64,000 nt of DNA, taken from Candidatus Latescibacterota bacterium (GTDB lineage: Bacteria; Latescibacterota; UBA2968; UBA8231). The notes beneath the pieces were generated by a model. That model was not told the origin of the DNA. It was given only the letters and a program-made list of their open reading frames with translations, and made no database searches. The stretch is taken from assembly GCA_965223905.1 (NCBI GenBank), contig CBDCXV010000009.1, positions 736,001 to 800,000 on the forward strand, written 5' to 3'. The position numbers were made by a program, and so were the translations under genes. Positions within the stretch are counted from its first letter, which is position 1; every line of letters begins with the position of its first letter. Positions 8,579 to 19,270 of the stretch are shown piece by piece.

Positions 8579-8800
8579 CCCCCTGCCTCCGCCGAGGTGT
8601 GACTGGTCCGCGCGGACGGTCAGCACCGCCTGTCTTCACCGGGAATGATACCGCGCATGAACTGGTCGGACAGGGGCAACCGTGAAGGAGGTATCACCGT
8701 CCAGGGCCGCGACCGCAGGCGCTGGAGTGCCGGCATGCAGGAACCGCCCGGGTTGCGGAACGTCAGCGGTCCGGGTATGTTGCGACAAATCGGAACTGAA

Positions 8801-9181
8801 ATGAGAATCGCCCGAGCCATCGCGCTGGCAGCGCTCGTCGCCGCCCTGCCGGCTTCCAGCTTCGCCCTGGAGGGGTACTGCCTCCACTGCGCGCAGGTGG
8901 AGACCGTCCCAGGCTGCCACCCGCAGCAGGCCGACGACCGGCCGCAGCTTCGGGCCGACTGCTTCTGCTGCGCCGCCCTGGCCTGCGCCGAGGATTCGCA
9001 GCCTTCCTCCGAGCCGGGCCACAGCTATCTGCCCGCGGCCAAGGCCCCGGCCGTTGCGCTCGCCGCCAAGGCTCCGGAACGCGCTCCCCGGGCGGCAACG
9101 CCGCGCCCCTCCGGAATTCGCCCCCCGCTGCATCCCGCCACAGTTCCCCTCTACGTCCTCCACGACGTCTACTTGATCTGA
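8801..9181 (+). CDS. Small exported Cys/His-rich protein, DUF2946/CruR-like, upstream of the metal-efflux genes
   Basis: Signal peptide, CLHC, GCH, CFCC, Pro-rich tail ending 'RPPLHPATVPLYVLHDVYLI'. Confidence 0.7.
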   Translation: MRIARAIALAALVAALPASSFALEGYCLHCAQVETVPGCHPQQADDRPQLRADCFCCAALACAEDSQPSSEPGHSYLPAAKAPAVALAAKAPERAPRAATPRPSGIRPPLHPATVPLYVLHDVYLI

Positions 9182-9341
9182 TCCTCCTCCGCTCTCGTCG
9201 CGCCGCCGCGGCCGATGCAGAGCGCAACAAGTGAAGCGCAGGCCGGTCCTGCCCCGAAGGCCGGGCCGCGAGTCCTGCGCATTGCCGCGCGTACCGGTCT
9301 ACCCGGCGCGCGGGCCGTTCGCCTTTTTCAGGAGGAGGAAG

Positions 9342-10601
9342 ATGCACCGAAGAATCATTGCCGCCGCGGCGCTGGCGCTGGCCGCGTCCGCAGGCGCCGA
9401 ACCACCCGAGCTCGACTTCGAGCGCCTGATCGAGGAGGCCCTGGCCGCGAATCCCGGGCTGAAGGCGCTCGAGCACCGGACAGCCGCGGCCGAGGCCAGG
9501 GTCCCGGCGGCCGGGGCGCTGCAGGACCCGTCGCTGCGGCTGGAGCTGAGCAACGTCCCTTTCAGTCCCCTCGACCTCGACGGCTCGCCGATGAGCGGCC
9601 GCCAGGTAACCCTGTCCCAGAAGCTCCCCTACCCGGGCAAACGCAAAGCCCGGGAACGCGCCGCCTCCCACGCCGCCGAGGCCGTTGCAGCCGCCCACCG
9701 GGAGCGCGAGCTGACCGTGGCCAACATGGTGAAGCAGGCCTATTACGAGCTCGCCTTCCTCGACCGGGCGATAGCCATCGCCGAGAGGAACCGGTCTCTG
9801 CTGAAGGATTTCGTCCGCATCGCGCAGAGCAAGTACTCGGTCGCCCGCGGCCCGCAGCAGGACGTGCTCAAGGCGCAGGTGTCGCTGTCGAGCCTGCGCG
9901 GCCGCCTGTTGATGCTGGAACGGCAACGGCGGCGGACTGGCGCCCGACTGAATGCGGTGCTGAACCGGCCCCCGGGCGAGCCAGTGGGCAGGACGCCCCC
10001 GATCGAGCCGACCCCTTTCGACATCGACGCGGGCCGGCTGCGGGAGATCGCCCAGGGGGAGCGGCCACTGCTGAACGGCCTGCGCGCTCGGCGAGACCGC
10101 TGGCGCGCCACCGAGGAGTTGGCGGTCCGGGAACGCCGCCCGGACTTCCAGGTCAGCGCCGCCTGGCGCCAGCGCGGCTTCAGGGAGGATCCGGTGGCGG
10201 GAAGCGACTTCTTCTCCGCCGGCGTAGTGCTGAACCTGCCGGTCTACCAGGGGCGCAGGCAGGACCGGGAGATCGCCGCGGCGCGGGCCGAGGTCAGGGC
10301 GGCCGAGGCGGAGCTCGAGGCGGAAAGCCGGGAGCTGGCGCTGCAGATCGAGCAGTTGCGGATCGACGCCGAGACCCACCTGCGGGAGATGGCGCTGTTC
10401 CGCGACGCGATCATCCCCCAGGCCGACCAGTCGCTGGCCGCGGCCATCGCCGGCTACCAGGTCGACGAGGTCGACTTCCTCACCCTGCTGGACAGCCAGG
10501 TAACCCTGCTGAATTTCGAGATCGACTACTACCGCCACCTGTCGCAATACGAGAAGACCCTGGCGCAGCTGGAGTCCGTCGTGGGCAGGAGGATCTTCTG
10601 A
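9342..10601 (+). CDS. TolC/CusC family outer-membrane efflux protein
   Basis: RBS AGGAGG then MHRRII; two OEP repeats ('ALAANPGL', 'SQKLPYPGKR', 'VLNLPVY'). Confidence 0.92.
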   Translation: MHRRIIAAAALALAASAGAEPPELDFERLIEEALAANPGLKALEHRTAAAEARVPAAGALQDPSLRLELSNVPFSPLDLDGSPMSGRQVTLSQKLPYPGKRKARERAASHAAEAVAAAHRERELTVANMVKQAYYELAFLDRAIAIAERNRSLLKDFVRIAQSKYSVARGPQQDVLKAQVSLSSLRGRLLMLERQRRRTGARLNAVLNRPPGEPVGRTPPIEPTPFDIDAGRLREIAQGERPLLNGLRARRDRWRATEELAVRERRPDFQVSAAWRQRGFREDPVAGSDFFSAGVVLNLPVYQGRRQDREIAAARAEVRAAEAELEAESRELALQIEQLRIDAETHLREMALFRDAIIPQADQSLAAAIAGYQVDEVDFLTLLDSQVTLLNFEIDYYRHLSQYEKTLAQLESVVGRRIF

Positions 10602-10776
10602 TGCTCGCCGGCAAACCATTTCTCGCGAAGGGGCCGGTGCAGTACGGACTCGCTGGGCTGCACTTCCCCGGCGGGTGCCCAACCACTCACCGGTTGCCCG
10701 CCATGCGAGCCGGGCGCCCCGGCGCCCTGGTCGGGCGCGAGTACCTGCTGCTGCGAGCACTGAGGGAGCGAAGATC

Positions 10777-12156
10777 ATGAAGAACACCACGTGGAAATAC
10801 GGGATCGCCGTCGTCCTGTCGCTGGCCGCCGGGCTCGGTCTCGGCCTGTGGCTGGGGGGCGCATTCGAAATGCAGACGTACGCCCAACATGAGGAAGCCT
10901 CCGTGTACCGCTGTCCCATGCACCCGACCGTGGTCTCCGACGGTCCGGGCAGCTGCCCGGTCTGCGGCATGGACCTGGTGGCCGACGAGCCGGCCGGAGG
11001 CAGCGCATCCGGAGGCGAACGCGTCATCGCGTACTGGCGGGCGCCGATGGACCCGTCGTACACCTCCCCGGAGCCGGGAAAGTCGCCGATGGGAATGGAC
11101 TTGGTGCCGGTGTACGAGGACGAGCTCCAGGCCGAGGGCACGGTGACCATCGATCCGGCGACGGTGCAGAACATCGGGGTGAAGACCGCGGCGGTGGAGC
11201 GCCGGATTCTGCACCGCACCCTGCGCACCGTCGGCCGCGTCGACTACGACGAGACGCGCATGACCGACGTCAACACCAAGATCGCCGGCTGGGTGGAGAA
11301 GCTGTTCGTCGACTACACCGGGCAGATGGTCGGGAAGGGAGAGCCGCTGCTGCAGATCTACAGCCCGGAGCTGGTGGCGGCCCAGGAGGAGTTCCTGACC
11401 GCCGTCGACTACAGCGAGCGCCTGCGGGCCGGCGCGGAGGGCGACGCCCTTGCGGGCGCGCGCGACCTGCGGTCGGCGTCGCTGCAGCGGCTGCGCTACT
11501 GGGACATCAGCGACCGGCAGATCGAGGCGCTGCGGGAGACGGGGAAGGTGCGGCGCACCATGACCGTGCACTCCCCGCAGCAGGGGACCGTGGTTCACAA
11601 GGGGGTGTTCGACGGCCAGCACATCGCCCGGGGGCAGCACCTCTACCGCATCGCCGAGCTGTCGCGGGTCTGGGTGTACGCCGACATCTACGAGTACGAG
11701 CTGCCGTGGGTGCGGGAGGGGCAGGAGGCCGAGGTCGAGCTCTCCTACCTGCCCGGGAAGACCTTCACCGGCAAGGTCACCTACGTCTATCCGTTTCTCG
11801 AGGCGAAGACCCGCACCGTGAAGGTGCGCATGGCCTTCCCCAACCCCGGACTCGAGCTGAAGCCGGGGATGTACGCCAACGTCACCATCCGCTCGCCGCT
11901 GCCGGCCGAGAGCGTCGTCGCGGTTCCGGTGCAGGCGGTGATCCACTCCGGGCCGCGCTACGTCGCCGTCGTCAGCCTCGGGGAGGGCCGCTTCCAGCCG
12001 CGCGACATCCGCGTCGGGGCCGAGGCCGGCGGCTTCTACGAGGTGCTCGAGGGCCTCCGCGAAGGGGAGCGGATCGTCACCTCGGCGCAGTTCCTGATCG
12101 ACTCGGAGAGCAACCTGAAGGCCGCGGTCGGCTCCATGCGGGAGGGTTCGTCATGA
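10777..12156 (+). CDS. cusB: CusB-type RND periplasmic adaptor with N-terminal heavy-metal-binding domains
   Basis: YRCPMHP...CPVCGMDL and YWRAPMDP...SPMGMDL domains; 'YSPEL..AQEE', 'LKPGMYA', 'SAQFLIDSES'. Confidence 0.93.
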   Translation: MKNTTWKYGIAVVLSLAAGLGLGLWLGGAFEMQTYAQHEEASVYRCPMHPTVVSDGPGSCPVCGMDLVADEPAGGSASGGERVIAYWRAPMDPSYTSPEPGKSPMGMDLVPVYEDELQAEGTVTIDPATVQNIGVKTAAVERRILHRTLRTVGRVDYDETRMTDVNTKIAGWVEKLFVDYTGQMVGKGEPLLQIYSPELVAAQEEFLTAVDYSERLRAGAEGDALAGARDLRSASLQRLRYWDISDRQIEALRETGKVRRTMTVHSPQQGTVVHKGVFDGQHIARGQHLYRIAELSRVWVYADIYEYELPWVREGQEAEVELSYLPGKTFTGKVTYVYPFLEAKTRTVKVRMAFPNPGLELKPGMYANVTIRSPLPAESVVAVPVQAVIHSGPRYVAVVSLGEGRFQPRDIRVGAEAGGFYEVLEGLREGERIVTSAQFLIDSESNLKAAVGSMREGSS

Positions 12157-15100
12157 TAGGGCGCGTCATCGAAGCCTGCATCCGCAACAAGCTGTTGACC
12201 CTGCTGCTGACCCTGCTTGCGGCCGGCGCCGGGCTCTACGCCGTGGCCGACACCCCCCTCGACGCCATCCCCGACCTGTCGGACGTGCAGGTGATCATCT
12301 TCACCGAGTACCCGGGGCAGGCCCCCCAGGTGGTCGAGGACCAGGTGACCTTTCCGCTGAGCACGGCGATGCTGGCGGTGCCGTTCGCCAGGGCAGTGAG
12401 GGGGTACTCCTTCTTCGGGCTCTCCTTCGTCTACGTCATCTTCGAGGACGGCACCGACATGTACTGGGCGCGCAGCCGGGTGCTGGAATACCTCAATTAC
12501 GCCGGCGACCGGCTGCCGTCCGGGGTGCGGCCGCGGCTGGGTCCGGACGCGACCGGGGTCGGCTGGGTGTACGAGTACGCCCTCGTCGACACCAGCGGCC
12601 GCCGCGACCTCGCGGAGCTGCGCTCGATCCAGGACTGGTACCTGCGCTACGAGCTGACCAGCGTGCCCGGGGTCGCCGAGGTGGCGAGCATCGGCGGCTT
12701 CGTCAAGCAGTACCAGGTGACCGTCGACCCCAACAAGCTGGTGGCCTACGGGATTCCCCTGCAGCAGGTCGGGGCCGCGATCCGGCGCAGCAACAACGAT
12801 GTCGGCGGCCGCCTCATCGAGCTGGCGGAGACCGAGTTCATGGTGCGCGGGCTCGGGTACATCGAGTCGCTCGAGGACATCCGCAACGTGCCGGTGAGCG
12901 CCGGCCTCTCCGGGACCCCGGTGCGGGTGCGGGACGTCGCCACCGTGTCGGTCGGGCCGGAGCTGCGCCGCGGCCTGGCGGAGTGGAACGGCGAAGGGGA
13001 AGTCGCCGGGGGCATCGTGGTGATGCGCTACGGCGAGAACGCGCTGGAGGTGATCGACGCGGTCAAGGAGAAGCTCGCCGCGCTCGAGGCCGGGCTGCCG
13101 GAGGGGGTGGTGGTGGAGACCGCCTACGACCGCTCCGGCCTCATCCGCCGCGCCGTCGGCCACCTGCAAGAGAAGCTGATCGAGGAGTGCCTGGTGGTGG
13201 CCGCGGTATGCGCGCTCTTCCTCCTCCACTTCCGCAGCGCCTTCGCCGCGGTCTTCACCCTGCCCGTCGGCATCCTCGTCTCCTTCATCGTCATGTGGGG
13301 CCAGGGGATCAACGCCAACATCATGTCCCTCGGGGGGATCGCCATCGCCGTCGGCGCCATGGTCGACGCCGGCATCGTGCAGATCGAGAACGCCCACCGG
13401 CATCTCGAGCGCGACCGCGGCCGCAAGGGCCACTGGGAAATCATCGCCGACGCCTCCAAGGAGGTGGGGCCGGCCCTGTTCTACTCGCTGCTGATCGTCA
13501 CCCTGTCCTTCCTGCCGGTGTTCACATTGGAGCAGCAGGAAGGGCGGCTGTTCAAGCCGCTGGCCTACACCAAGACCTACGCCATGGCGGCCGCGGCCAT
13601 CCTGTCGATCACCGTGGTGCCGGTGCTGATCGGCTTCTGCCTGCGCGGCCGCATCGTGCGCGAAGAGCGCAACCCCCTCAACCGTTTCCTGGTCCGGGGG
13701 TACGTGCCGGTCCTCGGCTGGCTGCTGCGCCACAAGGCGGCCGTGCTGGCCGCCGCCGCGGCGGTGGTGTTCGTGTCGCTGTTTCCCTTCCGCAGCGCCG
13801 TCGCCGACCGTTTCGCCGACCGGCCCGGAAGCTTCGCGCACCAGGCGCTCCAGCGCCTGCAGCGGCTGTTTCCCCTCGAGATGATCGGATCGGAGTTCAT
13901 GCCGCCGCTGTACGAGGGGGACCTGCTCTACATGCCGACGACCCTCCCGGGGGTGTCGGTCTCCAAGGCGCGGGAGCTGCTGCAGCAGACCGACCGGATC
14001 ATCCGCAGCTTCCCCGAAGTGGAGAACGTTTTCGGCAAGGTCGGCCGCGCCGAGACCGCCACCGACCCGGCGCCGCTGTCGATGATCGAGACCACCATCA
14101 CCCTGCGGCCGCAGGAGGAGTGGCGGCCGGGCATGACCCCGGAGAAGCTGGTCGAGGAGCTCGACGCCGCGGTCCGCTTTCCCGGCCTCACCAACTCCTG
14201 GACCATGCCGATCAAGACGCGCATCGATATGCTCTCGACCGGCATCAAGACCCCCGTCGGCATCAAGGTCGCGGGGGACGATCTCCAAACGCTCGAGGAG
14301 GTCGGCCGGCGGATCGAGCAGGTGATGCGCGAGATCCCCGGCACCGCCAGCGTTTACGCCGAGCGGGTCGCCGGAGGCAACTACATCGACTTCGAGATCG
14401 ACCGCGAGGAGGCGGCCCGCTACGGGCTGACGGTCGGCGACGTGCAGGACGTGATCCTGTCGGCGATGGGGGGCGTCAACGTCACCTACACCGTCGAGGG
14501 GCGCGAGCGTTACCCGGTAAACCTCCGCTACGGGCGCGAGCTGCGCGACAACCTGCCGGCTCTCCAACGGGTGCTGGTGGCCACGCCGTCCGGGGCGCAG
14601 GTGCCGATGGCGCAGCTCGCCGACCTGCGCATCCGCAAGGGGCCGCCCGGCATCAAGAGCGAGAACGCGCGCCTCAACGCCTGGGTCTACGTCGACATCC
14701 GCGACGCCGACGTCGGTACCTATGTCGAGCGGGCGCGGCAGGTCGTCGGCGAGCAGGTCGACCTGCCGCCGGGAACCAGCCTGGTCTGGAGCGGCCAGTA
14801 CGAATACATGGAGAGGGCGCAGCGGCGGCTGAGCATCGTCGTTCCGGTAACCCTTGCCATCATCTTCCTGCTCCTGTATCTCAACTTCCGCAGCGTCACC
14901 GAGAGCCTGATCGTCATGTTCACCCTGCCTTTCGCCCTGGTCGGGGGGATCTGGTTCATCTACCTGCTCGGCTACAACATGAGCGTCGCCGTCGGCGTCG
15001 GGTTCATCGCCCTCGCCGGGGTGAGCGCCGAGCTCGGAGTGGTCATGCTGACCTACCTCGACCAGGCGCTGGAGAGCCGCCGCAGGGACGGCCGGCTCGA

Positions 15101-15401
15101 CAGCTCCGGCGATCTCGTTGCCGCGGTTATTGAGGGCGCATCGAGAAGGGTGCGGCCGATCTTCATGACCGTCGGCTCGACGGTCGGCGGCCTGCTGCCG
15201 ATCATGTGGGCCTCGGGAACCGGGTCCCAGGTGATGAAGCGGATAGCGGCCCCGATGGTCGGGGGGCTGGCGACCGCCACCCTGCTCGTACTGCTGGTGC
15301 TGCCGGCCGTTTACGCTCTGTGGCGCGGCCTTGAGTTGCGCGCCGGCACGAAACCGACAACTGATACACACACCCACAAGGAAGGAGTCAGTGCATCATG
15401 A
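12153..15401 (+). CDS. cusA: CusA/SilA Cu(I)/Ag(I) RND efflux pump
   Basis: 'PLDAIPDLSDVQVII', 'LGPDATGVGWVY', 'EFMPPL.EGDLLYMP', 'DPAPLSMIET', 'WTMPIKTRIDML'; ATGA coupling to cusB. Confidence 0.96.
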   Translation: MIGRVIEACIRNKLLTLLLTLLAAGAGLYAVADTPLDAIPDLSDVQVIIFTEYPGQAPQVVEDQVTFPLSTAMLAVPFARAVRGYSFFGLSFVYVIFEDGTDMYWARSRVLEYLNYAGDRLPSGVRPRLGPDATGVGWVYEYALVDTSGRRDLAELRSIQDWYLRYELTSVPGVAEVASIGGFVKQYQVTVDPNKLVAYGIPLQQVGAAIRRSNNDVGGRLIELAETEFMVRGLGYIESLEDIRNVPVSAGLSGTPVRVRDVATVSVGPELRRGLAEWNGEGEVAGGIVVMRYGENALEVIDAVKEKLAALEAGLPEGVVVETAYDRSGLIRRAVGHLQEKLIEECLVVAAVCALFLLHFRSAFAAVFTLPVGILVSFIVMWGQGINANIMSLGGIAIAVGAMVDAGIVQIENAHRHLERDRGRKGHWEIIADASKEVGPALFYSLLIVTLSFLPVFTLEQQEGRLFKPLAYTKTYAMAAAAILSITVVPVLIGFCLRGRIVREERNPLNRFLVRGYVPVLGWLLRHKAAVLAAAAAVVFVSLFPFRSAVADRFADRPGSFAHQALQRLQRLFPLEMIGSEFMPPLYEGDLLYMPTTLPGVSVSKARELLQQTDRIIRSFPEVENVFGKVGRAETATDPAPLSMIETTITLRPQEEWRPGMTPEKLVEELDAAVRFPGLTNSWTMPIKTRIDMLSTGIKTPVGIKVAGDDLQTLEEVGRRIEQVMREIPGTASVYAERVAGGNYIDFEIDREEAARYGLTVGDVQDVILSAMGGVNVTYTVEGRERYPVNLRYGRELRDNLPALQRVLVATPSGAQVPMAQLADLRIRKGPPGIKSENARLNAWVYVDIRDADVGTYVERARQVVGEQVDLPPGTSLVWSGQYEYMERAQRRLSIVVPVTLAIIFLLLYLNFRSVTESLIVMFTLPFALVGGIWFIYLLGYNMSVAVGVGFIALAGVSAELGVVMLTYLDQALESRRRDGRLDSSGDLVAAVIEGASRRVRPIFMTVGSTVGGLLPIMWASGTGSQVMKRIAAPMVGGLATATLLVLLVLPAVYALWRGLELRAGTKPTTDTHTHKEGVSAS

Positions 15402-15834
15402 AACGCTTCGATTCGCCGCCATCCTCGCCCTCGCCCTGCCGGTCGCAGCGGCCGGCAGCCCATCCGGGGCGACCGAGGAGACCGCCGTCGATACGGCTTC
15501 CATGCAGGGAGAGATCGTCGACATCGCCTGCTACTTCCGCCACGACTCCAGCGGGCCGGAGCACACCAAGTGCGCCGTCTACTGCGCCAACCTCGGGATG
15601 CCCCTGGCCTTCCTCGAGGAGGAGACGGGCAACCTCTTCGTCGTGCTGCCCTCCGGGCACGCGGACCCGAAGGAAGTTGTGCTGCCGCACCTCGGCCAGG
15701 CTGTGAGCGTCGAGGGGATCCTGTGGTCCTCGGGAGGCCTGACCGGGATCGAGATCATGGAGATTCAACCTGCCGGGGAGGCCGGTGCCGACCCGGCGGA
15801 AGGGGAGATGGAGGGAGGGCACAGTGAACACTAA
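15391..15834 (+). CDS. Exported Cys/His-containing protein, probable periplasmic metal-binding OB-fold
   Basis: GTG start after GAAGGAG; signal peptide; 'GEIVDIACY...HTKCAVYCANLGMP'; overlaps the cusA 3' end. Confidence 0.8.
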   Translation: MHHETLRFAAILALALPVAAAGSPSGATEETAVDTASMQGEIVDIACYFRHDSSGPEHTKCAVYCANLGMPLAFLEEETGNLFVVLPSGHADPKEVVLPHLGQAVSVEGILWSSGGLTGIEIMEIQPAGEAGADPAEGEMEGGHSEH

Positions 15835-16159
15835 AGGGAAAGCCACCCTCGCCGTCGCAGCTGCGGCGGTTCTTCTGGCCGGAGGCGGCTACCTGTTGCA
15901 TGACCAAAGCCAGCCTCCGGAGTTGCCGCCTGACGGACTCGCCCTCTACCGGACCCTGCTGGAGGAGATCCCCGAGGTGGTCAGCGAGGTGCCGTGCGCC
16001 TGTTGCAAACAGACCCTGGCCTGGTGCTACGAGGGAGGCTGTCCCCCTACCTGACGCCAGTGCAACGAAGAAGGCCGTGACGCCTTCGAATGGCACCATG
16101 AAGGAAGGGGGATCGAGGAGATCAAGGAGCTGATCCTGGCGAAGTACTTCGACCAGTAG
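15824..16159 (+). CDS. Probable selenoprotein (Sec77, UxxC), membrane-anchored PCYCGC-like Cys-rich protein, 111 aa
   Basis: GTG start after GAGGGAGG; N-terminal TM; PCACC...WCY..GCPPT-TGA-RQC then the frame stays open (NEEGRDAFEWHHEGRGIEEIKELILAKYFDQ) to TAG at 16157-16159; hairpin follows the TGA. Confidence 0.78.
16055..16096 (+). promoter_or_regulatory. Candidate bacterial SECIS element
   Basis: Stem GAAGGC (16070-75)/GCCTTC (16082-87), loop CGTGAC with G in position 2, starting 21 nt after the UGA; lower pairing GCCA/TGGC or GTGC/GCAC. Confidence 0.6.
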
Positions 16160-16264
16160 TGGCCAGTCGTTATCATACCATGGTTGTCGGCTGGTTGGCG
16201 CTGTCGGCACCGGAGGCAGCCGATCACGGAGCGAGCGGCGAAGACCATTGATAGCAAAGAACGG

Positions 16265-17528
16265 ATGAATTCCATACAGGCGGGGGAAGATACCGAGCTC
16301 GAACTGAAGGAGATCGTGTTCCGGGGAGATAGGATTTCCTTTGCCAGGGAGGAAGGACGGGCTGCGTCCAAACTCGCAGAAGTATTCGTCAGCATGGCCA
16401 ACACGAAGGGGGGCGAGGTTGTGATGGGCGTGCCCAACAGCGATCGCATTCCAGTCGGAATCGACCACGAGATGCGCGATCTCCTGGAGCAATTCGTAGT
16501 CAACGTGGCGCTGAACAACTGCAAGCCTATGATCGTACCGGCGTTGAACTGGGAATACCTTCCCGGAGAAGACAGCGTGCCAAAGCTGTGTCTGATTGTT
16601 GAAATCCCCATGTCCAGATTCGATGTACACCAGACGAGCGACGGCCGCTTTCTTCAACGATTGGGAAGTCACCGGCAATCCATCCCTCCGGAACGACTGG
16701 CAGGCCTGCTGAGTGCTCGTCGCCTGACCAGCCCTGTAGAAGAAAGACCGGTTTTGGGCAGCAATCTGGATGATCTGAGCGAGGTTCGCTTGAACCAATA
16801 TTTCCTCGATCGCTTCCCGGACTGGTCCAGGCCCGAGGACTGGGGCTCCACCCTCGTCGACCACAAACTCGCCGTCGAGCTGGACTCGGGTGTGACGCCG
16901 ACGCACCTCGGAGTCTTGCTCTTTGCCGAACTACCAGAGCGGCATTTGAACGGCGCCTGCATCGATCTGGCCGCATATGCCCACGAGGAGCCCGACGGCA
17001 ATACCGTGGACAGCAAGCGGATCGTCGGCCCCGTGCCCGATCAGATCGCCCAGGCGCTGTCGTACATCCGGCTTTCACCCCTGGTTCCGACGCTCTCCAG
17101 GAAGGACGGAGAGGGCCGCATGGACTATCCGAGGTACGTGGAAACGGCTCTACAGGAAGCGGTCGTCAACGCCGTCGTGCACCGGGATTACGAGATCGCG
17201 GGTTCGCAGATCATCATCCGCCTGTTTCCCGACCGGATCGAGTTCCAGAATCCCGGTGCCCTCTACAACACCCTGACCATCGAGAACCTGTACGCGGGCT
17301 GTCAGCCTGTCCGCCGAAATCAGCTTCTGGCGGGATTCATGCGCGATTACAAGAGCGCGCTTACCGGCCGCAGCTATATGGAAGCGAGAGGCGAGGGGAT
17401 TCCTGAACCTGGTCAGGGACAGCCTGCGTCTGTCCGGGCGCCTCCCCAAGCTCGAACAGATCGGGGACGCGACCAAGCTGACGATCTACGCTGCGCGTCA
17501 TGAGGAGTTGGTGAATGATACGGATTGA
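16265..17528 (+). CDS. Schlafen/AlbA_2 domain plus RecG C-terminal-like (HATPase_c_4) protein, apparent frameshift near 17396
   Basis: 'GEDTELELKE','SMANTKGG..VMGV','ALQEAVVNAVVHRDY','F.DRIEFQNPG','RRNQLLA'; after EARGEG a plausible tail FLNLVRDS...KLTIYAA lies in another frame; start uncertain. Confidence 0.8.
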
Positions 17529-18118: not shown

Positions 18119-19270
18119 ATGACTGAAATTTACATACCTCAGGCACAACTGACTCGGCTCGAGCGTTCGGTCGCACCGGGAAAGGTCGTCGTGGTGTACG
18201 GTCCGAGGCGGGTCGGGAAGACCACCTTGATCCGGCGCTACGTTCAGCAGCACGACCGGGACGCCCTCGTGGTGACCGGCGAGGACATCGCCGTGCGCGA
18301 GTACCTGGAAAGCCAGTCCCTTGCCAAACTGAGGGCATTCGTCGGCGGGCGGCGGACGCTGATTGTGGACGAGGCTCAGTACGTGCGCCAGATCGGCCTG
18401 AACCTCAAGCTTCTTGCGGATCACGTCGAAGGCCTCCACATCATCGCCACGGGTTCTTCCTCCTTCGATCTCGCCCGGCAGACTGGCGAGCCCCTGACGG
18501 GTCGGAAATACACGCTGCTGCTTCTGCCCCTGGCCCAGCTGGAGCTCCGGGAAGTGGAAGCAGCCCATGAAACCAAGGCCCGGCTCGAAATGCGGCTGAT
18601 CTACGGGTCCTACCCGGAGGTCGTCCTCATGGAATCAAACGAGGACCGCGAGCTCTACATCAGGGAGTTGGTCGCTTCCTATCTGTTCAAGGACATCCTG
18701 CAGCTGGAGGGGGTCCGGCATACCGACAAGCTGCTGCGCCTGCTCCAGCTGCTGGCTTTCCAGATCGGCCGCGAGGTTTCGGTGTCCGAACTGGGGACCC
18801 GGCTCGGCATGAACAAGAACACGGTGGACCGCTATCTCGACCTGCTGGAGAAAGCCTACGTCATCTACAGCCGGGGCGGCTTCAGCCGCAATCTTCGCAA
18901 GGAGATCACCAAAAGCCGTCGCTACTACTTCTACGACAACGGGATCAGGAACGGACTGATCGGCAACTTCAACCCCCTGTCCCTCCGCGACGACGCCGGC
19001 GCCCTGTGGGAGAACTACATCATGGTCGAGCGGCTGAAGTACAACCTGTACACGGGGCGCCTGGCCGAGAGCCGTTTCTGGCGCACCTACGACCGGCAGG
19101 AGATCGACCTGGTCGAGGAGTGGGGCGGGCGGCTGCACGCGGCGGAAATGAAGTGGTCCTTCAAACCTGGCCGAGCCATCCGTGCGCCCGGCGGTTGGCG
19201 GCAGGCTTATCCCGACAGCTCGTTTGAGGTGGTTCACCCCGGGAACTACCTCGGTTTCATCGCCGGCTGA
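18119..19270 (+). CDS. AAA+ ATPase (AAA_14) with DUF4143 C-terminal domain
   Basis: GPRRVGKTT, IVDEAQ, ATGSSS, LTGR, YGSYPE, YFYDNGIRN, 'WRT..QEIDL.E...AAEMKW'. Confidence 0.92.
   Translation: MTEIYIPQAQLTRLERSVAPGKVVVVYGPRRVGKTTLIRRYVQQHDRDALVVTGEDIAVREYLESQSLAKLRAFVGGRRTLIVDEAQYVRQIGLNLKLLADHVEGLHIIATGSSSFDLARQTGEPLTGRKYTLLLLPLAQLELREVEAAHETKARLEMRLIYGSYPEVVLMESNEDRELYIRELVASYLFKDILQLEGVRHTDKLLRLLQLLAFQIGREVSVSELGTRLGMNKNTVDRYLDLLEKAYVIYSRGGFSRNLRKEITKSRRYYFYDNGIRNGLIGNFNPLSLRDDAGALWENYIMVERLKYNLYTGRLAESRFWRTYDRQEIDLVEEWGGRLHAAEMKWSFKPGRAIRAPGGWRQAYPDSSFEVVHPGNYLGFIAG

What the first reader, a model, noticed from the sequence alone, without database searches (positions are those of the whole stretch)
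15824..16159. Hidden UGA-recoded selenoprotein (UxxC) at the end of a Cu/Ag efflux operon
Seen: the ORF track stops at TGA 16052-54, but the frame continues for 34 more sense codons with host-like GC3 usage. The result is ...PCACCKQTLAWCYEGGCPPT-U-RQC-NEEGRDAFEWHHEGRGIEEIKELILAKYFDQ*. Known: PCYCGC-motif (lipo)proteins have PCxC...L..C.....CxxC...A......G.S..EI...I...Y, so the TGA sits where the first Cys of the CxxC should be, the classic Sec/Cys pairing. Inference: a membrane-anchored, probably periplasm-facing selenoprotein, overlapping its upstream neighbour, in a cusCBA operon. It could be a selenolate Cu(I)/Ag(I) chaperone or a redox partner of the pump. Selenoprotein relatives of this family may already be catalogued, but I know of no characterised Sec component of an RND metal-efflux system.
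Basis: partly seen in the sequence, partly recalled or inferred. Interest (0 to 1): 0.9.

Follow-up and report, generated by a model that had tools for sequence, protein, structure and literature searches.

The report
Hidden selenoprotein beside copper efflux pump
A small exported bacterial protein whose gene seems to end early at TGA is really read through with selenocysteine; its wider family was already predicted to be selenoproteins, but its frequent position next to copper-export pumps appears undescribed and suggests it handles copper outside the cytoplasm.

Summary
Window 15824-16159 (+) encodes a 111-residue protein with an in-frame TGA at codon 77 (16052-54).

- **TGA is conserved.** It occupies the same column in 26 of 27 newly fetched related loci where the motif is found. 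More distant homologues carry Cys there.
- **The tail is protein-coding.** The 34 codons after the TGA are conserved at protein level, with free synonymous variation.
- **A SECIS-like hairpin follows.** A 6-bp hairpin (16070-16087) lies 15 nt after the TGA and is kept in all 16 distinct Sec-form sequences, including frozen synonymous sites.
- **Sec machinery is present.** The genome has selA, selB, selD and tRNA-Sec, and TGA is otherwise its commonest stop.

The protein is a divergent CxCC...UxxC relative of the catalogued OS_HP4/CYCXC (PCYCGC, PF13798) predicted selenoprotein family. It scores below NCBIfam's cut-off (33.9 vs 90 bits), and the public protein entries seen are mostly truncated at the TGA. 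It is exported, as a signal anchor or a lipoprotein.

It lies next to a CusA-type pump in 11 of 17 Sec lineages with usable flanks. Cys forms lie next to a Cu-type P-type ATPase. The link to the pump is therefore frequent, not obligatory.

Function is inferred only: a periplasmic Cu(I)/Ag(I) acceptor or a thiol/selenol redox protein.

The parts
15824..16159 (+). Selenoprotein gene: 111 codons, GTG start, UGA-Sec at codon 77, TAG stop. The product carries CxCC...C....C...UxxC.
   Evidence: Orthologues with the same architecture. AF2 model has pLDDT 95-98 over residues 31-110.
15824..15898 (+). N-terminal signal anchor (K-rich N-terminus, then a hydrophobic stretch of about 19 residues). Homologues carry lipoboxes instead.
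   Evidence: Sequence. Lipobox-type N-termini in P0019, P0020, P0037 and L051. Topology is inferred from the positive-inside rule, not computed by any tool.
16052..16054 (+). In-frame TGA, read as selenocysteine (U77). It sits at the N-cap of predicted helix 78-92.
16070..16087 (+). SECIS-like hairpin GAAGGC-CGUGAC-GCCUUC, 15 nt after the UGA, with GU in the apical loop.
   Evidence: 96 of 96 cells pair across 16 distinct Sec-form sequences. It is the only RNAalifold consensus helix. Synonymous sites are frozen (GGC 16 of 16, CGT 15 of 16).
15391..15834 (+). Gene 'X': a secreted OB-fold protein with invariant Cys3/His/Met (C47, R50, H51, D52, C61, C65, M70, H90). Candidate CusF-like periplasmic metal binder. 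Its true start is probably the ATG at 15398 once the extra C seen in other runs is restored.
12153..15401 (+). CusA-type heavy-metal RND pump.
   Evidence: TIGR00914 at 1231.7 bits (cut-off 701). 1277 bits to E. coli CusA against 528 to ZneA.
10675..12156 (+). CusB-like membrane fusion protein with two HMBD repeats. Its start is uncertain because the ORF overlaps the upstream ORF.
9215..10780 (+). 521-aa ORF in the position of the outer-membrane factor. It is conserved next to CusB in relatives but matches no recognisable family.

Best explanation
Window 15824-16159 is a genuine gene. Its UGA at codon 77 is decoded as selenocysteine, directed by a short hairpin 15 nt downstream and the genome's SelA/SelB/SelD/tRNA-Sec system. 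The 111-residue product is anchored in the inner membrane by its N-terminus and faces the periplasm.

Its compact helical domain carries seven invariant Cys/Sec positions (C58, C60, C61, C68, C73, U77, C80). U77 sits at the N-cap of a helix, in a UxxC motif. The protein is a divergent CxCC subfamily of the PCYCGC / CYCXC (OS_HP4) superfamily.

Shown: the recoding signature, the family relationship, the export signals and the gene neighbourhoods.

Inferred: it is an accessory of Cu(I)/Ag(I) export. My preferred mechanism is a membrane-tethered selenolate/thiolate acceptor that takes soft metal ions on the periplasmic side and hands them to, or receives them from, CusCBA and the P1B-type ATPase.

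My probabilities: real Sec-decoded gene about 0.93; functional tie to copper export about 0.6; direct metal binding about 0.4 against thiol/selenol oxidoreductase about 0.35. The single confidence figure given for this explanation (0.75) refers to identity plus the general role as an exported Cys/Sec-rich accessory. It does not cover the specific mechanism.
For: **Recoding**
- TGA is conserved in the column in 26 of 27 newly fetched loci with the motif, and in 12 of the 15 genomes that have the family among 168 searched in the phylum.
- Cys occupies that column in G028, G033, G164 and L038, and in 8 full-length database homologues.
- Of 34 representative hits, 23 end at or within 2 residues of the TGA column; 5 of these were read and end exactly before the column. 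8 run through it with Cys, 2 are post-TGA fragments and 1 is unrelated.
- The tail after the TGA shows protein-type conservation with synonymous variation: N81, G94, I100, I104, K107, Y108 and F109.
- The hairpin pairs in 96 of 96 cells, against 35-54% when partners are slid. RNAalifold finds it as the sole consensus helix. One A-U to G-C compensatory change is present.
- Within the hairpin, G84 is GGC in 16 of 16 and R85 is CGT in 15 of 16. Elsewhere, G71 and G94 each use four codons.
- The hairpin is weakened in the TGC form L038 and, by inspection, not seen in the distant Cys forms.
- Sec machinery: selA 468 bits, a selB domain, selD with its own in-frame TGA, tRNA-Sec.
- TGA ends 1881 of 3016 long open frames, including CusA and CusB, so there is no genome-wide reassignment.
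- TGA is confirmed in contigs of three studies.

**Family**
- NF041379 at E 2.4e-8.
- PF13798 hits 7 of 30 members, best E 1.9e-7.

**Context**
- CusA and/or X is adjacent in 11 of 17 Sec lineages with usable flanks, in three different gene orders.
- Cys forms lie beside a YHS+HMBD P-type ATPase in G028 and G033 and beside CusA in G164.
Against: - No selenium incorporation has been measured.
- The hairpin's stability in the single sequence is not unusual (z -0.44).
- Covariation is thin: one pair, two closely related sequences, and the shuffle control reaches it 67 times in 500.
- Rfam has no matching SECIS family.
- Six of 17 Sec lineages with usable flanks have no metal gene nearby. Their neighbours are glycoside hydrolases, oxidoreductases and cyclases.
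- X co-occurs with the family in only 7 of the 15 genomes that have it.
- No tool could test metal binding, and the model's Cys-Cys geometry was not available to me.
- Periplasmic Cu(I) chaperones known to me (recalled) use Met, His and Trp rather than Cys.
Confidence: 0.75

Rival explanations
1. Same gene and the same Sec decoding, but the protein is a periplasmic thiol/selenol-disulfide oxidoreductase on a CcmH-like helical scaffold. Under copper stress it would keep Cys ligands of envelope proteins reduced (for example the Cys3 site of X), or undo copper-catalysed wrong disulfides. It would not bind metal itself.
For: - UxxC with Sec first, at a helix N-cap.
- Most UxxC selenoprotein families are thiol oxidoreductase homologues: 33 of 51 families in the table and text of PMC2398784.
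- CcmH is the best natural structural neighbour: 2hl7 at Z 5.1, rmsd 3.0, 65 residues aligned; Foldseek target-normalised TM 0.55 and 0.52 for 2hl7 and 2kw0.
- The PDB profile search hits CcmH 2kw0 at E 0.18.
- PF03918 hits 3 of 30 members weakly.
- hhalign against the genome's own CcmH aligns CxCC..L..C with CLCGSC..L..C, and the G.S.EEI motifs, at E 0.003.
Against: - Every CcmH signal is individually insignificant: Z lies in the chance range for helical bundles, hhalign probability is 10%, and Foldseek E is above 1.
- No Dsb, CcdA or thioredoxin-type reductant gene was seen in the neighbourhoods examined.
- Seven invariant Cys/Sec is more than a simple oxidoreductase needs.
- X is absent from 8 of the 15 genomes with the family.
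Confidence: 0.35
2. The protein is a real selenoprotein, but its role is unrelated to copper. The Cus adjacency would be a lineage-specific accident of gene order inherited within one bacterial family.
For: - Six of 17 Sec lineages lack any metal gene nearby.
- All pump-linked genomes found by the genome search belong to one family, f1, so they are not independent.
- A PCYCGC lipoprotein in a Bacillales species lies next to an Fe3+ binding protein, not a copper system (passage in PMC13068155).
Against: - The linkage survives three different gene orders: CBA-X-Sel, X-Sel-CBA and CBA-Sel-X.
- It reappears with a different copper exporter, a P1B ATPase, in Cys forms that share only 26-34% identity with this protein.
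Confidence: 0.2
3. TGA is a true stop, or is read by near-cognate suppression as Trp or Cys. The functional product would then be the 76-residue protein, and the downstream conservation would reflect something else.
For: - Gene callers end most deposited copies there: 17 of 18 close database hits are 75-85 aa.
- One deposited protein (P0003) shows W at the column.
Against: - The DNA matching P0003 (L035) has TGA, so the W comes from a code-4 style gene call.
- The tail is conserved in frame with synonymous drift.
- Cys homologues are continuous.
- A hairpin specific to the TGA forms is conserved.
- Full Sec machinery is present.
- The truncated product would lose 2 of the 7 invariant Cys/Sec positions and two helices of a confidently predicted domain.
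Confidence: 0.04

Closest known systems
OS_HP4 / 'CYCXC family (seleno)protein' (NCBIfam NF041379). Listed as a predicted UxxC selenoprotein family in the tables of PMC9312934 and PMC13188914.
   Same: Small protein with one Sec in a UxxC motif, Cys-rich, function unknown. The model matches residues 47-108, spanning the Sec (E 2.4e-8). The nearest protein-atlas clusters of a Cys homologue carry this name (score 0.80-0.81, a lead only).
   Different: 33.9 bits against a curated cut-off of 90. None of the 168 genomes of this phylum reaches the cut-off. The motif is CxCC rather than C-Y-C-x-C, one residue shorter. The rare homologues P0034 and P0037 have CHCGC and bridge the two forms. No published link to Cus was found.
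Pfam PF13798 PCYCGC (lipo)proteins of unknown function
   Same: Exported or lipoprotein, three clustered Cys plus further conserved Cys. 7 of 30 family members hit the model, best E 1.9e-7.
   Different: This protein gives no hit even at E up to 10. It has seven conserved Cys/Sec, against six non-lipobox Cys described for a Bacillales member (PMC13068155 passage).
CcmH (PF03918; PDB 2hl7, 2kw0), the periplasmic non-thioredoxin CxxC oxidoreductase of cytochrome c maturation
   Same: Membrane-anchored, periplasmic, small helical domain with a Cys motif followed by ..L..C and a G.S.EEI....Y/F helix. It is the best natural fold neighbour.
   Different: No significant sequence or fold score. The genome has its own canonical CcmH elsewhere. 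CcmH's CxxC aligns with the CxCC motif, not with UxxC. There is no ccm context.
CusF / SilF periplasmic Cu(I)/Ag(I) chaperones of CusCFBA
   Same: A small periplasmic accessory encoded with a CusCBA-type pump. The co-encoded protein X shares the OB fold: SilF 8bwv at Z 5.6, and the SilB C-domain 2l55 at Z 5.0.
   Different: The selenoprotein itself is helical, not OB. Its candidate ligands are Cys/Sec, not Met/His/Trp (the CusF ligand set is recalled). X's SilF scores are tied with generic OB folds such as SSB, PriB and RPA.
Other predicted Sec proteins of metal handling: UxxC cation-transporting ATPase, YHS-domain selenoprotein, SO_0444 family Cu/Zn efflux transporter (tables and text of PMC13188914 and PMC2398784)
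   Same: Sec replaces Cys in a motif of a metal-transport-associated protein. The review text says Sec may act as a metal ligand in some.
   Different: Different folds and families. None is described as an accessory of an RND pump.

Membership tests
Bacterial selenoprotein gene (Sec-decoded UGA) | In-frame UGA conserved among orthologues | tested here: met
   26 of 27 newly fetched loci with the motif. 12 of 15 genomes with the family.
Bacterial selenoprotein gene (Sec-decoded UGA) | Cys at the homologous position in other homologues | tested here: met
   8 full-length database homologues, plus G028, G033, G164 and L038.
Bacterial selenoprotein gene (Sec-decoded UGA) | Protein-level conservation continues downstream of the UGA | tested here: met
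   Invariant C80 and G94; N81, G84 and I100 conserved in at least 90% of 30 sequences. Synonymous variation at invariant residues.
Bacterial selenoprotein gene (Sec-decoded UGA) | SECIS stem-loop shortly downstream of the UGA, with G in the apical loop (criteria recalled from the bSECISearch literature) | tested here: met
   Hairpin at 16070-16087, 15 nt after the UGA, loop CGUGAC. 96 of 96 cells pair and synonymous sites are frozen. SelB binding was not tested, and Rfam gave no hit.
Bacterial selenoprotein gene (Sec-decoded UGA) | selA, selB, selC and selD present in the genome | tested here: met
Bacterial selenoprotein gene (Sec-decoded UGA) | Selenium actually incorporated | not testable with these tools
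   Needs 75Se labelling or mass spectrometry.
NCBIfam NF041379 OS_HP4_CYCXC | Score at or above the curated cut-off of 90 bits | tested here: not met
   33.9 bits for the protein and 28.9 bits on the genome. 0 of 168 genomes in the phylum reach the cut-off.
NCBIfam NF041379 OS_HP4_CYCXC | C-Y-C-x-C motif | tested here: not met
   C-A-C-C here. CxCC is invariant in 28 of 30 members; P0034 and P0037 have CHCGC.
NCBIfam NF041379 OS_HP4_CYCXC | Single Sec in UxxC | tested here: met
   U77-R-Q-C80. The motif is as listed in the review tables.
Pfam PF13798 PCYCGC | Hit above the gathering score (25 bits) | tested here: not met
   No hit for this protein at E up to 10. 7 of 30 relatives hit, best E 1.9e-7, so the relationship is at superfamily level only.
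CcmH (PF03918) | Profile match and shared fold with an aligned active-site CxxC | tested here: inconclusive
   PF03918 finds only the genome's canonical CcmH. 3 of 30 members hit at E 0.18 or weaker. hhalign E 0.003, probability 10%. 2hl7 at Z 5.1.
CusCFBA-type Cu(I)/Ag(I) efflux system (the neighbourhood) | CusA-type RND permease | tested here: met
   TIGR00914 at 1231.7 bits, above the 701 cut-off. 1277 bits to E. coli CusA against 528 to ZneA. The Met-triad residues were not inspected.
CusCFBA-type Cu(I)/Ag(I) efflux system (the neighbourhood) | CusB-type adaptor | tested here: inconclusive
   TIGR01730 at 131 bits, above the 94.9 cut-off. The CusB-specific model NF007303 gives 214 bits, below its 390 cut-off. 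Two HMBD repeats are present.
CusCFBA-type Cu(I)/Ag(I) efflux system (the neighbourhood) | Outer-membrane factor (CusC/TolC family) | tested here: inconclusive
   The 521-aa ORF in that position has no hit in Pfam, NCBIfam or PDB sequences.
CusCFBA-type Cu(I)/Ag(I) efflux system (the neighbourhood) | CusF-like periplasmic chaperone | tested here: inconclusive
   X is an OB fold with invariant Cys, His and Met. SilF scores Z 5.6, tied with generic OB folds.

The most novel reading that the evidence does not exclude
A selenocysteine-bearing, membrane-tethered periplasmic protein acts as the soft-metal acceptor or relay between the Cu(I) P-type ATPase and the CusCBA pump. It would be the first selenoprotein functionally integrated into trans-envelope metal efflux. 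Sec would be selected because a selenolate stays reactive in the oxidising periplasm. In addition, the whole PCYCGC/CYCXC superfamily would be an offshoot of the CcmH helical redox fold.
Probability: 0.3. Interest if true: 0.7.

Novelty: new variant of a known kind. Interest (0 to 1): 0.45.

Why it matters
- **Annotation.** A whole subfamily of real genes is deposited as 75-85 aa stumps: 17 of 18 close database hits, including the 2 held by NCBI. NCBI's own family model does not reach them. They will keep being mis-called unless the model is widened.
- **Biology.** OS_HP4/CYCXC/PCYCGC proteins have no known function. A repeated linkage to two different Cu(I) exporters gives the first testable functional hypothesis for them.
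- **Chemistry.** It is a natural case for asking why Sec is preferred over Cys in an exported, Cys-rich protein. Sec and Cys forms occur within a single genus (g18), which offers matched pairs for comparison.

Tried and rejected
- **Single-sequence fold of the region after the UGA.** The MFE is not unusual (z -0.44), so stability alone is no evidence.
- **Covariation shuffle control.** Not significant: 67 of 500 shuffles reach the observed score. The hairpin argument rests on conservation and synonymous-site freezing instead.
- **Rfam.** No SECIS family matched. The only hit is a chance miRNA match at E 2.3.
- **Complex prediction (natural Cys form of G028 with its X protein, own alignments A6 and A7).** No verdict, score 0.00. 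This is evidence neither for nor against binding.
- **Co-occurrence of X with the family.** 7 of the 15 genomes with the family have X, against 13 of the other 153. They are enriched together but separable, so I dropped the idea that X is an obligate partner. The genomes are kin and some are incomplete.
- **Tree of 30 Sec and Cys forms (79 columns).** Poorly resolved. The Sec label needs 2 changes on the best tree, and supported branches force only 1. No order of Sec/Cys events is claimed.
- **Bridging search from the CHCGC homologue P0034.** Found only 3 proteins. No canonical NF041379 member was obtained, so I could not check residue by residue that the Sec column is the same as in OS_HP4.
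- **OS_HP4 in the primary literature.** It is not named in the main text of the Olavius paper (PMC1976440, passages) or of the GOS paper (PMC2398784, passages). I saw it only in the two review tables. The supplements are closed and may hold the original description.
- **BSepDB paper.** Its main text has none of my search terms.
- **Listing of 12 of 213 papers (titles and abstract starts only).** It shows no native Sec protein linked to Cus. PMC6235853 concerns metal transfer in the E. coli Cus pump; my reading that it uses Sec as an engineered probe comes from the listing and recall, not from its text.
- **Promoter and terminator scan.** At background level.
- **PDB sequence search of the putative outer-membrane ORF.** Nothing found.
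- **A4 rows.** It holds 16 distinct nucleotide rows. I left out the near-identical copies L011/L025, L026, L033, L036, L037, L040, L042, L044-L047 and the truncated L052.
- **First filing of the report.** It was returned for a missing confidence field and was resent with that field added.
Full report
**1. Observation**

Window 15824-16159 (+) starts at GTG. It has TGA at 16052-54 as codon 77, then 34 sense codons, then TAG at 16157-59. The gene overlaps the stop of the upstream ORF by 11 nt and is preceded by a GGAGGG run.

An open frame after a stop means little in this GC-rich DNA: one search lists 74 ORFs of at least 50 aa in 13 kb. The case therefore rests on comparison with other sequences.

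**2. The TGA is real and conserved**

Contigs of three separate DNA studies (X2, X5, X9) and one RNA-library contig (X19) bridge 16052-54 with no alternative letters.

In relatives, the protein matched in 8 of 61 genomes. The six closest, including this genome, have TGA in the column and the match runs on to residues 109-111. The two most distant have no stop and read Cys there.

I fetched 28 further loci from public genome and metagenome contigs. 27 contain the motif: 26 have TGA, one (L038) has TGC, and L034 lacks the motif. Several of these are the same genomes or identical genes. There are 22 distinct Sec-form proteins in all.

With the NCBIfam model, 15 of 168 genomes of the phylum have the gene, all within one family. 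12 have TGA and 3 do not. One genus (g18) contains both kinds in different genomes.

**3. The database picture fits a missed selenoprotein**

Of 18 close database hits, 17 are 75-85 aa. Of the 8 sequences I read, 7 end at ...CPPT or ...CPPS. The eighth (P0003) shows W in the column, but the matching DNA (L035) has TGA, so the W comes from a TGA=Trp gene call.

The exhaustive search returned 34 representatives:
- 23 stop at or within 2 residues of the column. I read five of them, and all five end just before it.
- 8 run through it, all with Cys (CP..C..CN).
- 2 are fragments called after the TGA. One of them, P0043, has Gly at the column and an aberrant N-terminus.
- 1 is an unrelated repeat protein.

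**4. Coding constraint after the TGA, and an RNA constraint on top of it**

I compared 16 distinct Sec-form sequences. Invariant residues after the TGA vary freely at synonymous sites: N81 AAC/AAT, G94 with four codons, I100, I104, K107, Y108 and F109. This is the signature of a translated region.

One stretch behaves differently. GA[A/G]-GGC-CGT-GA[C/T]-GC[C/T]-[C/T]TC is frozen: G84 is GGC in 16 of 16, R85 is CGT in 15 of 16 and A87 is GCC in 14 of 16. By contrast G71 and G94 each use four codons, and P74 and P75 use three or four.

That stretch forms a 6-bp hairpin: 16070-16075 pairs with 16082-16087, with loop CGUGAC.
- RNAalifold finds it as the only consensus helix.
- 96 of 96 cells pair, against 35-54% when the partners are slid.
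- One pair changes A-U to G-C in two related sequences, together with an F-to-L change.

Covariation is too thin to be significant on its own: 67 of 500 shuffles reach the observed score. Single-sequence stability is ordinary, and Rfam has no matching family.

The TGC form L038 has lost the loop GU and one pair. The distant Cys forms show no such hairpin by inspection.

The position, 15 nt after the UGA with the loop starting 21 nt after it and GU in the loop, fits what I recall of bacterial SECIS rules. That comparison is recalled, not tested.

**5. Machinery and genetic code**

The genome has all four Sec components:
- selA at 468 bits.
- A SelB winged-helix domain in a 645-aa frame.
- selD at 367 bits, with its own in-frame TGA.
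- One tRNA-Sec with anticodon tca among 57 tRNAs.

TGA ends 1881 of 3016 open frames of at least 500 codons, and it ends CusA and CusB in the window. TGA is therefore not reassigned genome-wide.

**6. What the protein is**

It has an N-terminal K-rich segment followed by a hydrophobic stretch. Homologues carry lipoboxes instead. I therefore infer an extracytoplasmic domain.

In a 30-sequence alignment, C58, C60, C61, C68, C73, U/C77 and C80 are invariant. AlphaFold2 gives pLDDT 95-98 for residues 31-110, with helices at 39-48, 50-53, 65-72, 78-92 and 97-109. U77 sits at the N-cap of helix 78-92.

*Family.* NCBIfam NF041379, the 'CYCXC family (seleno)protein' OS_HP4, matches residues 47-108 at E 2.4e-8. 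The score is only 33.9 bits against a cut-off of 90. None of the 168 genomes in the phylum reaches the cut-off. Pfam PF13798 (PCYCGC) does not hit this protein, but it hits 7 of 30 family members, best E 1.9e-7. The motif here is CxCC. P0034 and P0037 have CHCGC and bridge to CYCXC. I therefore treat it as a divergent subfamily of that superfamily, not as a member of the curated family.

*Literature.* Two reviews list OS_HP4 as a predicted UxxC selenoprotein family without a function (tables in PMC9312934 and PMC13188914). 'OS_HP' means Olavius symbiont hypothetical protein (PMC1976440). OS_HP4 itself is not in the main text of that paper or of the GOS paper, and the supplements are closed.

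**7. Fold lead**

There is no significant structural match. The best natural neighbour is CcmH:
- VIA-align gives 2hl7 at Z 5.1, rmsd 3.0, 65 residues aligned, rank 3 behind two designed proteins.
- Foldseek gives target-normalised TM 0.55 and 0.52 for 2hl7 and 2kw0, with E above 1.
- A PDB profile search gives CcmH 2kw0 at E 0.18.
- hhalign against the genome's own CcmH aligns CxCC..L..C with CLCGSC..L..C, and the G.S.EEI helix, at E 0.003 and probability 10%.

These are four weak signals that are not independent of each other. Together they make a lead, not a finding.

**8. Neighbourhood**

Upstream of the gene lie:
- A CusA-type pump: TIGR00914 at 1232 bits, and 1277 bits to E. coli CusA against 528 to ZneA.
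- A CusB-like adaptor with HMBD repeats.
- A 521-aa ORF of no recognisable family in the outer-membrane-factor position.
- Gene X, immediately upstream. X is secreted and has an invariant C..RHD...H..C...C...M...H pattern. It has an OB fold: Foldseek probability about 1.0 to RPA and SSB at E 3e-3, and SilF at Z 5.6, tied with generic OB folds.

Among Sec lineages with usable flanks, 11 of 17 have CusA and/or X next to the gene. Three gene orders occur: CBA-X-Sel, X-Sel-CBA and CBA-Sel-X. The other six have unrelated neighbours.

The distant Cys forms lie beside a YHS+HMBD P-type ATPase. In G028 this is inside a CusBA-X cluster, and in G033 the gene is directly adjacent. In G164 the Cys form lies beside CusA.

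X and the family co-occur in 7 of the 15 genomes with the family, against 13 of the other 153. They are separable modules.

**9. Mechanism (inferred)**

These points together suggest an envelope accessory of Cu(I)/Ag(I) export:
- the protein is exported;
- it has seven invariant Cys/Sec positions;
- a selenolate sits at a helix N-cap;
- it is repeatedly linked to two kinds of Cu(I) exporter.

I favour direct soft-metal binding and relay (about 0.4) over a CcmH- or Scs-like thiol/selenol oxidoreductase role (about 0.35). An unrelated function remains possible (about 0.2). None of this was testable here.

**10. Novelty and verdict**

A selenoprotein in this superfamily is already catalogued. New here are:
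- the divergent CxCC subfamily that the curated model misses and gene callers truncate;
- its specific SECIS-like hairpin;
- its repeated linkage to Cus and P1B exporters, for which my searches found no report;
- the CcmH lead.

The surprise value is moderate.

Noticed in passing
window 15398-15410: Contigs of three runs (X2, X5, X19) carry an extra C after 15408. With it, gene X starts at ATG 15398 and reads M-K-R-F-R-F-A-A-I-L as in its relatives. That ATG overlaps the CusA stop as ATGA. The window probably has a 1-nt deletion or strain variant here. As given, X must start at GTG 15391.
   Followed up: partly
window 9215-10780 (+): The 521-aa ORF in the position of the outer-membrane factor is conserved next to CusB in relatives at 33-80% identity. 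It has no hit in Pfam, NCBIfam or PDB sequences. It may be an unrecognised outer-membrane component.
   Followed up: partly
window 8645-9181 (+): A small Cys-rich ORF (C-L-H-C ... C-F-C-C-A-A-L-A-C) lies upstream of the pump genes. It is conserved in G001, G002 and L033 at 51-90% identity and matches no family.
   Followed up: no
window 16184-17503 and 18119-19270 (+): Directly downstream lie a Schlafen AlbA_2 + HATPase_c_4 protein and an AAA_14/DUF4143 ATPase. The first is missing at this spot in G001 but present in G002 and L026, so the region after the operon is variable.
   Followed up: no
G000:C10:1272233-1273156 (L008): The genome's selD itself contains one in-frame TGA, so it is probably also a selenoprotein.
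   Followed up: no
P0043, P0053 (database proteins): Two deposited ORFs are fragments called from the part after the TGA. P0053 (32 aa) starts right after the Sec codon. P0043 has Gly at the Sec column and an unrelated N-terminus. This could be a frameshifted or decayed copy.
   Followed up: no
L028, L036 (X gene, 77 aa): In the G005 lineage the X gene is truncated and lacks the N-terminal Cys/His motif. The selenoprotein next to it is intact.
   Followed up: no
L025, L033 versus L026, L027, L031, L032 (record titles): Public titles label close relatives variously as Candidatus Latescibacterota, Gemmatimonadaceae, Gemmatimonadetes or Planctomycetota. The genome search places those it found in one family, f1. 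The taxonomic labels of these MAGs are inconsistent.
   Followed up: no
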